A stretch of 64,000 nt of DNA from Eledone cirrhosa. Taxonomy: Eukaryota. Below the pieces are notes generated by a model, which did not search any database, had not been told where the DNA came from, and was given only the letters and a program-made list of their open reading frames with translations. Shown piece after piece: positions 2,785 to 55,523 of the stretch. The first letter of the stretch is position 1, and every line of letters starts with the position of its first letter. The DNA lies in contig OZ024752.1 in assembly GCA_964016885.1 (NCBI GenBank), positions 8,680,001 to 8,744,000 of the forward strand. The letters are read 5' to 3'. A program made the position numbers and the translations under genes.

Positions 2785-2975
2785 AGATGAGATTCTACAG
2801 GACTAGAACTGTTTCATTCTTTAGAAATCATCAGGAATCAGAGATTCCTGATGATTTCTAAAGAATGAAACAGTTCTAGTCCTGTAGAATCTCATCTATA
2901 TTAAAACTTTTATACTCTGCAATGTATTGAGTACCTTACTTACTGTGGTTACCTCCGATTCAACCCGGAATAACG
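2785..2975 (+). mobile_element. Short hairpin-plus-tail PLE-like element, family A (other copies 3362-3490 and 20639-20778, minus strand)
   Basis: Inverted arms centred at ~2840, tail ending CCGGAATAACG, (TA)n on both sides. Confidence 0.8.
2841..2893 (+). ncRNA. Type I hammerhead ribozyme (family A)
   Basis: GAGATTC CTGATGA TTTCTAAAGAAT GAAA CAG-TTCTAGTC-CTG TA GAATCTC. Confidence 0.82.
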
Positions 2976-4619
2976 TATATATATATATATATATATATAT
3001 ATATATATATAATAACTAGCATGAATAACTCCTGTGATTATTCATGTTTATTTATATGTTAATCAATTTCTAGTTATTATAAAATGCTCGGACCTACTCG
3101 TTAGAATCTTAGAGCTTATTTTGCGGGTGATATGGCGCATGTCTTTCTGGCATGACACCCATAATTTTGATTTAGATTAAATTCATTTGATTTATCTTAA
3201 TTTTGGATATATATATATGTATATATATATATATATATATGTATATATATATATATATATATATATATATATATATATATATATATATATATATATATAT
3301 ATATATATATATATATATATATATATATATATATATATATATATATATATATATATATATATACGTTATTCCGGGTTGAATCGGAGGTAACCACAGTAAG
3401 TAAGGTACTCAATACATTGCAGAGTATAAAAGTTTTAATATAGATGATATTCTACAGGACTAGAACTGTTTCATTCTTTAGAAATCATCATATATATATA
3501 GGTATTAGGATTGGTGCTCTGAAATAGCGATGTTTACATGAATGTATGTATAGTATATTTGGCAATATACCGTATGTTTAATTAAAAACATTTAGAAGAC
3601 CATACGCTATCAATTCTAAAGTAGTGACTATGTCACTTACTTCTTTTCGGCGAAAGAAGTATGGTGAATGCCAGCCACCGTGAAACAGACTGTCAGCTGC
3701 TCTCCCTTCTTTCAATATTGGTGTACTGTTCAAGCTACCATAGAATGACAAGAACCTGCAGATTTTCAGGGCCGCCAAAACAAAGTGCAACTGACAACCA
3801 GGCGTTGTGTCAACGAGTAAAAGACACAACCCTCTACGGAAGTATCTAGATAGCCAGCCACAATATAGGGCCAAAGCCGTAGTAATATATGATGGCATCA
3901 AGGAAGTATTTGGATGAAGCCAGAACAAGACAGCTTCCTTCAAATCCTTCTCTGGAAGAACAATTACAAAGAAACGTTAATGGAGAACTGAATGAAACAA
4001 AAATCCGACTTATACCCCGGAGAGTGTATCAAGTACCCTTCAACTAGAAGTGAAGAACTGAATGTAACACAACCTCGACTTATGCCCCACACAGTATAAC
4101 ACATACCCTTCAACTAGAGATGGAGAACTGAATTTAACACAACTTCGACTTATACCCCAGAGAATGTATCAAGTACCCTTCAATTAGAGTTGGAGAGATG
4201 AAAGAAACACTAAACTGACCTATACCACAGAAAAAACATCAGGTACCCTCCAGCCCTGGATACCACCACGTGAAGGCCAAGCACAGAATTGTCCTCCGAA
4301 TATCGATCAAGTACCTTATCTAGCGGCCACCATCAACCACAATTTCTCTCAGACCTCATCAAACCAGCTCAAGAAAGAAAACGTGTTTCAGTCCTTTGAC
4401 TAACGAAACAGCCTAATCGTGTAATTAATGTGCTTGCAAGTGGCCGGGCATTCCACAGCCACATGTACTTTCCACATAGTTCTCAGGGAGATTCAGCGTG
4501 ATACAGTGTGTGATTAGGTTGATGTTTTTAATGTCTTCTAGTAGCTATAGTAATTAGTTTTTATTGAAATATCCAGAACAGGCTGTGTTGTTTTTTCTTC
4601 TTTTTAGTCAGACACAGAT

Positions 4620-5313
4620 CCTTCAGTTAAGACGGAACCTATCACACACATCATACAGTTACGATGGAACCTATCACATACATAATAGAGTTAAGACGGA
4701 ACCTATCACATATATCATACAGTTAAGACAGAATCTATCACACAGATCATACAGTTAAGACGGAACCTATCAGATATATCATACAGTTAAGACGGAACCT
4801 ATCAGATATATCATACAGTTAAGAAGGAACCTATCACATACATCATACAGTTAAGACGGAACCTATCAGATACATCATACAGTTAAGACGGAACCTATCA
4901 CATACATCATACAGTTAAGACGGAACCTATCACATACATCATACAGCTAAGACGGAACCTATCACATACATCATACAGTTAAGACGGAACCTATCACATA
5001 TATCATACAGTTAAGACAGAATCTATCACACAGATCATACAGTTAAGACGGAACCTATCAGATATATCATACAGTTAAGAAGGAACCTATCACATACATC
5101 ATACAGTTAAGACGGAACCTATCAGATACATCATACAGTTAAGACGGAACCTATCACATACATCATACAGTTAAGACGGAACCTATCACATACATCATAC
5201 AGTTAAGACGGAACCTATCACATACATCATACAGTTAAGACGGAACCTATCACATACATCATACAGTTAAGACGGAACTATCACATACATCATACAGTTA
5301 AGACGGAACCTAT
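4620..5313. repeat. 30-bp minisatellite
   Basis: Unit CAGTTAAGACGGAACCTATCACATACATCATA-like, about 22 copies. Confidence 0.9.
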
Positions 5314-53270: not shown

Positions 53271-53425
53271 TTCATTATTTCTGAAGACGGCGTATATATG
53301 TGTTAGGTATGTATATTTAATCTTGATAATTTGTATAATTTTGTATAATTTTGTACATAGATCTGTTGAATATGCATACCAATTATAACACATATATACC
53401 CTAGAAACGATCGTTAAATAATGAA
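53271..53425 (+). ncRNA. Type I hammerhead ribozyme in the PLE 3' pLTR region (long stem II)
   Basis: Stem I TTCATTATTT/AAATAATGAA, core CTGAAGA, ~115-nt stem II region (GTATATATGTGTTA/TAACACATATATAC), GAAA, palindromic CGATCG, then TT. Confidence 0.8.
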
Positions 53426-53976
53426 CTTTTTTTGTTTAATATAAGGAATTGTTTATTCATTATTTGTTTAATATTTTATCTTGACTCTGTATACCGTTTA
53501 TCTTTCACCGAAAGTGGATTTTCATTACATCTCTTCTTTCCATGATATCCGGAATACATTGAGTTCTTCATACGGATTGGACACTACCGTAAACTCTTGG
53601 TAGATTTATCTACATATATATATATATATATATATATATATATATATATATATATATATATATATATATATATATATATATATATATGTATATATATATA
53701 TGTATATATATATATATACATGTATATATATATATATATACATGTATATATATATATATATATATACATAATATATATATATATATATATATATATATAT
53801 ATATATATATATACATATATATATATACATGTATATATATATATATATACATATATATATATATATATATACATATATATATATATATATATATATTATA
53901 TATATATATATATATATATATATATATATATATATATATATATATATATATATATATATATATATATATATATATA

Positions 53977-55523
53977 TTAGAAAGTGAGGTTTTTTTTACA
54001 AAATGAAAAATAACCGAGGTGTCCTACACGAGTGGAAGTATAAAGAAAAAGGGATGAAATCGAAAATGCAACTGAAGTCTTATTTTTAAAAATAATATAT
54101 ATATTTATTTGGTTCCTTTACCGGTTTCGCAGTTCTTCTGCTTTTCAAAAGGTGAGTTGAGATGGAGGGTCTGTGGTTTTTCTCACATCTGGTTGGTCTC
54201 TAAATGTTACTTGTTTTATATGGAAAAAGTGGCTCGAAAACCAGGTTTTTCGAGAAGTAATTTGATTGGTTTGTCAATAATTATAATAAACTTTGCGCTA
54301 ACAATACAACAGAACAAATGCGAATAAATAAGGAAAATATGTTTATTCAAAAATATAGACCAACATTAAATAAGGTTTAATATACATTATGTCAACACCA
54401 CAATATGACATACACACACACACATAACACCTTCTACTTTAGAAAATAAAAACCCGAACTAAATAAACCTTAAACATACGTTTGCACTGGCAATACAACA
54501 GCAAACAAAAAAGTCAGGAAAATATGTTCATTCAAAAATATTCCTACTAAAGGAATCATTTTCCTACACACACACATACACACACACACAATATATATAT
54601 ATATATATATATATATATTCTCTTCATCTTAACATGCTAACCATACTCCCACACACATAACACCCATACACACACATAACAACCCCCACACCTACAACAC
54701 CCTCCCCATTTCTACTAATAGAACCACTTTCCTACACACATATATATATACACACACACAAAATATATATTCTCTCTATCTAACATACTCGCACACACAC
54801 ACATAACACCCATATATACACACACACAACTCCCTCCCCCATCTCTACTAATAGAATCATCTTCCAATACACACATACACACACACATATACACACACAC
54901 AAGCACACAAATAAACACATATCTTCAGTCTCAATAGAAAATCTGAACTCTGACACCTGAACTCTGACAGCTGGCCATATTCACTGAACCAGAACATTTC
55001 TCCCAATCCCTTTTCCCTTGACCACTATCTCTTCATTGTCATAACATTCACTATAAAGACTACAGAATAGTTTTCCAAATAAGGGCGCAAAAATGTAATG
55101 AAAACTTGTTCACGTGACAGCCAAATTTCATTTATAACCAACCAAAAAAAAGCCTTCGTGAGCCTCATTTTTTCAAGTAAAAAGAAATTCAAACACTCAT
55201 ATATGAAAAAACAACCTGTGACAACCCCCCCCCCTCTTATTTGAAGAACTATTGTAACGCGAACTGGCGCGAAATTTATTATAATTATTGACAAACCAAT
55301 CAAATTACTTCTCGAAAAACCTGGTTTTCGAGCCATTTTTCCATATAAAACAAGTAACATTTAGAGACCAACCAGATGTGAGAAAAACCACAGACCCTCC
55401 ATCTCAACTCACCTTTTGAAAAGCAGAAGAACTGCGAAACCGGTAAAGGAACCAAATAAATATATATATTTTTAAAAAAAATAAGACTTCAGTTGCATTT
55501 TCGATTTCATCCCTTTTTCTTTA
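53977..55523. mobile_element. Degenerate PLE-type insertion with ~260-bp terminal inverted arms and a ~63-nt tail
   Basis: 54041-54298 is the reverse complement of 55267-55523. Decayed HHR CCTT TTGAAAA GCAG..CTGC GAAA CCGG TA AAGG at 55412-55449. Confidence 0.65.

What the first reader, a model, noticed from the sequence alone, without database searches (positions are those of the whole stretch)
2785..55523. Many hammerhead-bearing hairpin-plus-tail retroelement families colonising (TA)n microsatellites
Seen: at least eight sequence-unrelated short families, plus the 466-bp array and the autonomous PLE, share one architecture. It runs (TA)n, inverted arm, direct arm, unpaired 60-135 nt 3' tail, (TA)n, usually with a minimal type I HHR whose stem III is palindromic (CTAG, TGCGCA, TACGTA, CAATTG, CGATCG, CCGG). 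Known: PLE pLTRs carry such dimer-prone HHRs, and PLEs produce inverted 5' structures with a 3' tail. Inference: these are 3' remnants and non-autonomous partners of a diverse, (TA)n-targeted PLE radiation. That gives roughly one HHR motif per 3-4 kb inside a developmental gene's intron.
Basis: partly seen in the sequence, partly recalled or inferred. Interest (0 to 1): 0.9.

Follow-up and report, generated by a model that had tools for sequence, protein, structure and literature searches.

The report
Twin RNA hairpins set Penelope ends
The short hairpin-plus-tail repeats in this octopus BMP intron are mostly end fragments of many protein-coding Hydra-clade Penelope retrotransposons, and both ends of their insertions sit just before two copies of a small conserved hairpin that likely tells the reverse transcriptase where to start.

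Summary
Observation confirmed. The window has 21 type I hammerhead motifs (0.12 in shuffles) and about 15 repeat families built as (TA)n, inverted arm, direct arm, 65-167 nt tail, (TA)n. The reading needs correcting: 10 of 15 families join a Hydra-clade Penelope-like (PLE) ORF elsewhere in the genome, so they are remnants of autonomous elements; only two (466-bp and ~557-bp units) are shown to be non-coding. Hydra PLEs, their (TA)n targets, hammerheads, inverted ends and tails are published. Not found in print: a bulged hairpin (RCUC/GAGY stem, 2-nt 3' bulge, then RCU) present twice ahead of the ORF. The inverted arm ends 0-6 nt before copy 1, the tail 0-7 nt before copy 2 (90 of 99 ends in three families); 94 of 109 head-to-head pairs use one of each. 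The motif is in 30 of 42 non-host Hydra leaders (20 with two copies), covaries, and blind-predicted a hidden ORF. It is likely the loading site that fixes the two reverse-transcription start sites, so the tail is simply hairpin 1 plus spacer. The short copies may be run-offs to the mRNA 5' end. No RNA or biochemical evidence.

The parts
42811..53610 (+). Family K insertion: 10.8-kb head-to-head Hydra PLE. Inverted arm ends at site X (42811, mirror of 53476), junction near 48183, 134-nt tail to site Y (53610).
   Evidence: arms about 99.9% identical; 6.3-kb tandem units with an 813-aa ORF elsewhere
48183..49691 (+). 3' part of the K ORF (aa 312-813: RT palm/thumb, CxCX5C linker, GIY-YIG), mirrored at 46677-48185 on the minus strand
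53281..53415 (+). K hammerhead with a 116-nt stem II and CGATCG stem III (mirror copy 42872-43006, minus strand)
53484..53564 (+). K hairpin 1 (ACUC/GAGU, UU bulge, 71-nt inner stem), 7 nt after X
19832..20079 (-). Short copy of family K (57-nt arms plus 134-nt tail)
41075..41269 (+). Family B short copy; others at 32485-32676, 24343-24499, 42519-42704, 2649-2737, 57153-57217. It is the end of a 3531-bp Hydra unit (717-aa ORF) and carries only the 3' half of a U3-A8 hammerhead.
41198..41221 (+). B hairpin 1, 8 nt after the start of the tail
21252..21502 (-). Family C short copy (others 40123-40292, 33024-33163, 26350-26471, 40400-40449). End of a ~3260-bp Hydra unit (709-aa ORF); hammerhead core CAGAAGA.
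17737..18173 (+). Family E short copy (also 31590-31847, whose inverted arm is longer than its direct arm). End of a Hydra element with an 800-aa ORF; TGCGCA hammerheads; hairpin 1 at 18092-18116.
2786..2972 (+). Family A short copy (also 3367-3488, 20641-20776, 12088-12151); hammerhead in both arms; hairpin 1 at 2914-2932. Linked to a degraded Hydra ORF in L273.
21525..21854 (-). Family D short copy (also 27242-27492, 20815-20972; relative 42388-42518). Linked to a Hydra ORF end in one copy, across a short TA run.
15627..15899 (-). Family F copy (also 25581-25683, 20484-20600). A relative's tail runs into hairpin 2 and a Hydra ORF in L358.
20219..20492 (-). Family G short copy (also 33295-33603). 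Hairpin 2 and Hydra ORF found by a blind pattern search.
18539..18928 (-). Family J short copy, 167-nt tail (relative 41519-41756 with the CAATTG hammerhead and 84-nt stem II). The tail runs into hairpin 2 and a Hydra ORF in the C1 block.
21050..21189 (.). Family L: symmetric hairpin without a tail, an exception to the X+Y rule; linked to a Hydra ORF end in the C3 block
12846..15254 (-). Family I: 466-bp non-coding hammerhead tandem array with inverted junctions. Dispersed arrays end at the same two sites about 65 nt apart; only a degenerate hairpin 2 is recognisable. Relative at 12339-12646.
21930..22153 (+). Family M short copy with GUUC/GAAC hairpin 1 at 22049. The full unit is ~557 bp, non-coding, with hammerhead and both hairpins.
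53978..55521 (-). Family O: 256-bp arms, 65-nt tail, U3-A8 hammerhead with CCGG stem III, variant hairpin; partner ORF not found
25340..26026 (.). Family H pieces (minimal ACGT hammerhead at 25397; also 346-504); partner ORF not found
3012..3206 (+). Family N piece with GCUC/GAGC hairpin at 3086 (also 8986-9115); partner ORF not found
7644..8500 (+). Coding exon 1 of the host BMP-family gene; intron 1 starts at 8501

Best explanation
These repeats are insertions of Hydra-clade Penelope-like retrotransposons into (TA)n tracts, and their two ends lie just before two copies of a conserved bulged hairpin that likely loads two reverse transcriptases on one RNA. SHOWN: in tandem or pLTR-bearing elements the order is hammerhead, site X, hairpin 1, site Y, hairpin 2, ATG, RT-GIY-YIG ORF. 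Copies end at X or at Y and abut (TA)n. Head-to-head inserts nearly always pair one X end with one Y end, so the tail is the stretch X to Y (hairpin 1 plus a 42-63 nt spacer). Both arms usually carry the same sequence variants. Either arm can be the longer one. INFERRED: the GIY-YIG domain cuts both strands of a (TA)n tract; one RT bound at hairpin 1 primes on one strand at X and another bound at hairpin 2 primes on the other strand at Y, helped by the TA/TAT microhomology that starts most tails. Both make antisense cDNA from the same uncleaved transcript, and the two cDNA 3' ends are joined and filled in. INFERRED, weaker: because the twin hairpins lie in the mRNA leader, loading there copies only 60-250 nt before reaching the RNA 5' end, which would give the very abundant short copies with family-specific 5' hot spots. 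Full-length copies would need a tandem transcript and its downstream hairpins. A solo Y-ended copy lacks hairpin 2 and should be unable to template an X+Y insert. Non-coding tandem units that keep both hairpins (M) are the true non-autonomous riders.
For: Family-ORF links. Hydra motifs in four ORFs. Ends: in 604 kb not picked for these families, 44 of 47 B, 33 of 39 C and 13 of 13 E hits end at X or Y, and 85 of those 90 are followed by TA-type repeats. Contigs of four public DNA runs (one study) show TA loose ends at the same X and Y and a further loose end at the B 5' hot spot. Pairs: 94 of 109 are X+Y, 2 X+X, 3 Y+Y, 10 unclassed; 88 of 109 have overlapping arms; discordance at polymorphic sites is A 0/35, B 20/207, E 20/130, F 0/35 against 17, 93, 36 and 18 expected for independent templates. 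Motif outside the host: 30 of 42 marine-metagenome Hydra leaders have at least one copy and 20 have two; 0 of 42 on the opposite strand, 1.2% in shuffles, 11 of 375 ORF windows. 12 of 19 scorable downstream copies stop 1-9 nt before a called hairpin. Covariation with sequence-only anchors, 69 instances: inner pairs 63, 42 and 40 Watson-Crick against 42, 21 and 19 shuffled. Genome-wide pattern 1204 hits against 5 for the control. Blind test for G: 95 hits against 0; hairpin 2 follows in 14 of 15 loci and a Hydra ORF in 11. Published Hydra consensus sequences carry the hairpins (PMC8557442 supplement). In vitro, another PLE cuts and extends both strands from two internal start sites that bound the tail, using uncleaved RNA (PMC11167929). 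TATA-like boxes lie 25-33 nt before the 5' hot spot in A, B, K and O (read by eye; 4% by chance).
Against: No RNA, binding or priming data. Watson-Crick covariation fits a DNA hairpin as well as an RNA one, and G-U pairs are few. The metagenome loci include close relatives, so the counts and shuffles overstate independence. The pair set includes loci picked by B and E searches. Family I has the same two-end geometry but no clear hairpin 1, and a 310-bp tandem family in the C3 block has no clear hairpin either. The L copy and 12339-12493 are symmetric. 4 of 19 metagenome ends lie elsewhere and 3 are only near. The blind patterns for A and M were weak (1 real leader in 8 hits; 2 hits against 3 control hits). 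For the run-off step: only 4 of 11 families show a well-placed TATA box, K and O rest on 2-3 copies, E has the sharpest hot spot but no TATA box, and B's hot spot coincides with a hairpin in stem II.
Confidence: 0.7

Rival explanations
1. The twin hairpin acts in DNA: the GIY-YIG domain recognises it and cuts or resolves the intermediate next to it, which makes the two ends and the tail.
For: PMC8557442 ascribes tails to endonuclease-mediated resolution. PMC11167929 recalls that the D. virilis endonuclease needed the tail sequence for recognition. The covariation is mostly Watson-Crick.
Against: Ends lie on the 5' side of each hairpin in the sense strand and join directly to (TA)n, as target-primed starts would. 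A Y-ended insert does not contain hairpin 2 at all. In vitro RT start sites match the tail boundaries in another PLE.
Confidence: 0.15
2. One priming event at Y, followed by fold-back self-priming of the cDNA or of an antisense template, makes the inverted arm.
For: The arms share variants. Small duplications and palindromes occur at junctions. Self-priming was proposed in PMC3846280.
Against: The inverted arm can be far longer than the direct arm (about 1.7 kb reaching the ORF against 98 nt in the C1 block; also window 31590-31847 and 41519-41756), which fold-back on the direct arm cannot produce. X-ended copies also occur alone and always stop before hairpin 1.
Confidence: 0.08
3. The 5' hot spots of the short copies are RT stalls at RNA structure (hammerhead stems) rather than the mRNA 5' end. 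This changes only the last step of the best explanation.
For: B's hot spot lies on the 3' arm of a hairpin inside stem II. A, C, L and M stop near the hammerhead core. E has no TATA box.
Against: E, F, D and O stop 40-90 nt upstream of the ribozyme, and K downstream of its cut site. TATA-like boxes are at promoter distance in 4 families against 4% by chance. A TATA box and initiator in a pLTR are reported for a rotifer PLE.
Confidence: 0.4
4. The short families are independent non-autonomous elements (MITE- or SINE-like) that replicate as whole hairpin-plus-tail units.
For: Very similar short lengths across many copies of B and E; I and M are non-coding.
Against: 10 of 15 families continue into Hydra ORFs. 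Junction sequences differ from copy to copy and the arms share private variants. The ends are asymmetric.
Confidence: 0.05

Closest known systems
Hydra clade of Penelope-like elements (Craig et al. 2021, PMC8557442; includes Hydra-1_Obim)
   Same: RT plus C-terminal GIY-YIG, DKT, CxCX5C linker, (TA)n targets, 3' hammerhead (often with U-U at the base of stem II), tandem and inverted copies.
   Different: The paper lists one Octopus family and elements generally under 3 kb with 30-40 nt tails described for PLEs. Here there are at least ten families, units up to 6.3 kb and tails of 65-167 nt. The twin hairpin is in its consensus sequences but is not mentioned: 'hairpin', 'stem-loop' and 'bulge' occur 0 times in the main text, and the first two 0 times in the supplement text.
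Poseidon PAc from Anolis (Frangieh et al. 2024, PMC11167929)
   Same: Both strands are cut and extended, two internal RT start sites bound the tail, and hammerhead cleavage is not needed.
   Different: There the start sites lie in an AC-rich stem-loop inside the ORF and no repeated recognition motif is given in the two parts of four that I read. Here both sites lie in the leader, each before its own conserved hairpin.
Minimal PLE hammerheads (Cervera and de la Pena 2014, PMC4209133)
   Same: Type I, palindromic stem III, U3-A8 variant, pairs on opposite strands 100-700 bp apart, massive numbers.
   Different: This genome adds a fixed CAGAAGA core (family C) and stem II insertions of 50-116 nt.
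Non-LTR retrozymes (PMC7229834; bioRxiv 10.64898/2026.07.22.740005)
   Same: Families I and M are non-coding tandem units of a few hundred bp with one type I hammerhead each; a PLE origin is proposed in both papers.
   Different: Here the arrays carry the PLE insertion signature (two fixed ends, inverted junction, TA target), and M keeps both Hydra hairpins. Circular RNA and cleavage were not tested.
L1 twin priming (recalled, not from a call)
   Same: Two target strands prime cDNA and give an inversion.
   Different: In twin priming the second start is variable and the two parts do not overlap. Here the second start is fixed by a motif and the arms overlap in 88 of 109 pairs.

Membership tests
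Hydra-clade PLE | Single ORF, telomerase-like RT with C-terminal GIY-YIG | tested here: met
   [quoted passage not shown] The model of C (pLDDT 92) has TERT as its best fold matches. Pfam gave no hit.
Hydra-clade PLE | DKT in place of DKG | tested here: met
   SDKT in 4 of 4 ORFs
Hydra-clade PLE | N-terminal RWK motif | tested here: inconclusive
   RWR in K, B, C and RWT in E; RWK in J. The published Hydra-1_Crog also has RWR.
Hydra-clade PLE | CxCX5C linker; CxxC and CxH around the end of the endonuclease; no CCHH | tested here: met
   CxCX5C in 4 of 4 by regex. CxxC and CxH read by eye from the printed proteins. Absence of CCHH judged by eye only.
Hydra-clade PLE | Insertion into (TA)n | tested here: met
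   85 of 90 X/Y ends followed by TA-type repeats; (TA)8+ covers 4-10% of the blocks
Hydra-clade PLE | Hammerhead near the 3' end / in the pLTR | tested here: met
Hydra-clade PLE | Placement in the Hydra clade on an RT tree with reference clades | not tested
   No reference sets for the other clades were held as files. Similarity to published Hydra proteins was seen by eye.
Non-LTR retrozyme (families I, M) | Non-coding tandem unit of a few hundred bp with a type I hammerhead | tested here: met
   I: 466-bp arrays without an ORF in 30 loci. M: ~557-bp unit, longest frame 68 codons.
Non-LTR retrozyme (families I, M) | Self-cleavage and circular RNA monomers | not testable with these tools
   no RNA data
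MITE | Symmetric terminal inverted repeats, fixed internal structure, no retroelement link | tested here: not met
   Asymmetric X/Y ends, variable junctions and links to RT ORFs
Dimer-type minimal hammerhead | Cleaves as a dimer through the palindromic stem III | not testable with these tools
   27 of 37 stem types are palindromic; activity untested

The most novel reading that the evidence does not exclude
Hydra-clade PLEs carry a clade-wide, duplicated RNA loading signal that positions two reverse transcriptases a fixed few bases from their start sites. This one feature would explain the PLE tail, the head-to-head inversion and the need for tandem copies. The hundreds of thousands of short hairpin repeats in the octopus genome would be strong-stop cDNAs copied from the mRNA leader, and any RNA bearing the two hairpins could be inserted into (TA)n in trans.
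Probability: 0.45. Interest if true: 0.8.

Novelty: new variant of a known kind. Interest (0 to 1): 0.62.

Why it matters
How PLE reverse transcriptases, the closest relatives of telomerase RT, recognise their template and why they leave tails and inverted ends is stated as open in PMC8557442, and only one PLE has been reconstituted (PMC11167929). A 20-nt motif that predicts both ends across a clade gives a direct mutational test and a minimal cis-signal for cargo insertion into (TA)n. It also gives an annotation rule: the pattern found hidden ORFs and a further non-coding family. These short repeats are abundant (rough extrapolation from 0.54 Mb: about 120,000 Y ends for family B alone) and could be mistaken for MITEs or SINEs; a 2026 octopus repeat annotation lists 893 unclassified SINE families among recent insertions and does not mention hammerheads or Hydra (PMC13282606, passages). 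Whether those include these families was not checked.

Tried and rejected
Rfam: no hit at gathering score; the 150 rows shown of 1062 E-value hits were microsatellite-like miRNA models. Pfam did not recognise the Hydra ORFs or BMP exon 1. DNA search of the genome with family A was empty, which is uninformative because common words are skipped. Pattern for A: 8 hits, 1 real leader. Pattern for M: 2 hits against 3 controls, so no enrichment, although L404 showed hairpin 2. The C7 block gave 51 hammerhead calls from one satellite, rejected as false and left out of the density. No RNA holder was listed for family B, so expression and RNA 5' ends were not examined. The dimer prediction for ORF C residues 1-480 gave no answer. 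The protein atlas gave nothing for the BMP prodomain. Earlier scan notes: three look-ups, nothing returned. An assembly artefact for the 10.8-kb palindrome was considered and judged unlikely: it has the X/Y tail asymmetry, and head-to-head ORF pairs recur on other contigs. Hammerhead cleavage as the source of the ends was rejected: neither X nor Y nor most 5' hot spots fall on the cut site. Literature: nine searches and term look-ups in PMC8557442 found no description of the twin hairpin. Subscription papers, Repbase reports and bioRxiv supplements were not searchable.
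Full report
Setting. The window is G000:C12:8680001-8744000 of a 3.0-Gb assembly. The host gene is BMP-family. Coding exon 1 is at 7644-8500 and three more exons lie 148-175 kb downstream, all matching one cephalopod protein (TGF-beta domain). The nearest named homologue is an Octopus protein at 97% over the matched part, so I call the host an octopus.

Observation. Masked self-BLAST and reading between (TA)n runs give about 15 families, labelled A-O, with the described layout. 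Tails in 12 measured inserts are 65-167 nt. A type I hammerhead descriptor that allows long stem II, U-U at its base and the U3-A8 core finds 21 motifs, against 0.12 in 25 shuffles; they belong to 13 insertions. Across four blocks there are 37 distinct stem I/III types and 27 have a palindromic stem III (pairing is part of the descriptor, so what this shows is the variety of pair types). Elsewhere the density is 24 in 200 kb, 41 in 200 kb (23 from one tandem family) and 13 in 130 kb, so this window is about three times richer than those blocks.

What the families are. The window's ORF matches 85 scored places at 99-100%, many with an open frame of 830 codons, in 6.3-kb tandem units. Searching with diverged homologues retrieved two more intact families whose ends are B and C. 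Block scans linked E, D, J and L; E has intact 800-aa ORFs. Pattern searches linked A, F and G. The links for A, D, F, J and L rest on one copy each. The four complete ORFs are 37-54% identical and carry the Hydra motifs listed in section 11 of PMC8557442. Family I is a non-coding 466-bp unit whose dispersed arrays end at two fixed sites and have inverted junctions. M is a ~557-bp non-coding unit. H, N and O remain unlinked.

The twin hairpin. In tandem copies of K, B, C, E, J, F and G the sequence just past the tail end (Y) is a hairpin: GCUC paired with GAGC, a 2-nt bulge on the 3' side and a variable inner stem, usually followed by RCU. The sequence just past the inverted-arm end (X) is the same hairpin, mostly as ACUC/GAGU. 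In blocks not chosen for these families, 44 of 47 B, 33 of 39 C and 13 of 13 E hits end within a few bases before one of the hairpins (X 0-6 nt, Y -1 to 7 nt), and 85 of these 90 are followed by TA-type repeats. Contigs from four public DNA runs (at most two samples, one study) show TA loose ends at B's X (1333) and Y (1413) and loose ends at 1269, the 5' hot spot (the depths there are not copy numbers). Of 109 head-to-head pairs, 94 are X+Y (this set includes loci picked by B and E searches).

Outside the host. Of 78 metagenome Hydra loci I listed 57 with a match near the ORF start, and 42 of these had at least 170 nt upstream. 30 have the motif and 20 have it twice, against 0 on the opposite strand, 1.2% in shuffles and 11 of 375 ORF windows. 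Of 19 downstream copies that end inside their contig, 12 stop 1-9 nt before a called hairpin, 3 stop near one and 4 elsewhere. With anchors chosen on sequence alone (69 of 74 anchors usable), the free positions pair far more often than in 5000 shuffles; related loci inflate this. Variants such as UCUC/GAGA and GUUC/GAAC keep the stem. In the supplement of PMC8557442, Hydra-1_Ajap begins with both hairpins and two other consensus sequences end with hairpin 1 and a short tail. A genome-wide pattern for hairpin 2 has 1204 matches against 5. The first 30 loci were mostly family C leaders, plus F, one new ORF-bearing family and a family with both hairpins but no ORF in the following 1.5 kb. The blind test on G was clean (95 against 0); those on A and M were weak.

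Mechanism. The arms overlap in 88 of 109 pairs and share alleles much more often than independent templates would, although B and E show some discordance above background (20 of 207 and 20 of 130, against 3% and 1% at other sites), so two templates may sometimes be used. The inverted arm can be much longer than the direct one, which argues against simple fold-back. Copies run through the hammerhead cut site, so the template was uncut. This fits the in vitro behaviour of PAc (PMC11167929, parts 1-2 of 4 read). I therefore infer double-strand priming at X and Y, each positioned by its hairpin. 5' ends cluster by family: B 48 of 73 in 11 nt, A 18 of 30, E 9 of 24, C 11 of 56, F 9 of 32. TATA-like boxes are 25-33 nt upstream in A, B, K and O, just outside that range in D and F, and absent in E. 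Run-off at the mRNA 5' end is my preferred reading of the short copies at about 55-60%, with structure-induced stalling the rival. That two RT molecules act together is inferred from the geometry.

What is known. Papers seen: PMC8557442 (abstract, passages, section 11, supplement part 2 and look-ups); PMC11167929 (parts 1-2 of 4); PMC4209133 (part 1 of 4); PMC3846280 (passages, Discussion); PMC2377424, PMC7229834, PMC6962438 and PMC13282606 (passages); bioRxiv 10.64898/2026.07.22.740005 (part 1 of 5 and passages; supplements closed). These cover the Hydra clade, (TA)n targets, hammerheads, tails, inverted ends, pLTR promoters and a PLE origin of retrozymes. None of the text I saw describes the duplicated hairpin. 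L1 twin priming is recalled, not read.

Verdict. The new element is a clade-wide duplicated cis-signal that predicts both insertion ends. It is well supported as a sequence rule and untested as a mechanism. Interest 0.62.

Noticed in passing
L377, L383, L363, L375, L379 (G000:C1); stretches L405-L411: A family not in the window (TGATCA hammerhead) has both hairpins but no Hydra ORF in the 1.5 kb after hairpin 2; one copy spans about 3.1 kb between hammerheads without an ORF. Probably a long non-autonomous Hydra rider.
   Followed up: partly
C3 block, G000:C3:150113700-150119100 and 150074700-150076200; relative at window 3501-3610: A 310-bp non-coding tandem family with a CGCG hammerhead (23 motifs in two arrays). 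Its two ends abut (TA)n about 34 nt apart and it has no clear Hydra hairpin, so another PLE clade may move it.
   Followed up: partly
window 21367-21477; L161-L190: Family C has a fixed CAGAAGA hammerhead core (A at position 4) in young intact copies; it may be inactive or protein-dependent.
   Followed up: no
window 49692-53280: The K element carries a 3.7-kb 3' UTR full of microsatellite-like sequence and an N/T/K-rich insert between RT and endonuclease; its own UTR spreads (TA)/(CA) tracts that can serve as new targets.
   Followed up: no
L272:1500-1760: A family A tail and leader start run into a fragment of a different RT (FYGIPKVHK motif), a possible template switch between PLE clades.
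   Followed up: no
window 1799-2171, 36085-36642, 61991-63803: A repeat family with a zf-RVT-bearing ORF piece at 63153-63800 (LINE-like), unrelated to the finding.
   Followed up: no
window 10271-10437, 23620-24043, 26938-27051, 34120-34317, 35636-35769, 38613-38705; 2213-2422, 24508-24715, 26044-26159: Two tRNA-like SINE families, often also next to (TA)n.
   Followed up: no
window 38901-39477 and 40449-40932: Two inverted copies of a ~570-bp repeat with internal tRNA-like inverted parts, about 1 kb apart; also present in the C3 block.
   Followed up: no
window 54043-55521: Family O arms enclose about 1 kb of sequence with (CA)-rich stretches; its hairpin 1 is a variant with a G-U and a mismatch, at the usual 43-nt distance from Y.
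   Followed up: partly
G000:C7:30000001-30100000: 100 kb of a single T-rich satellite with no (TA)8 run.
   Followed up: no
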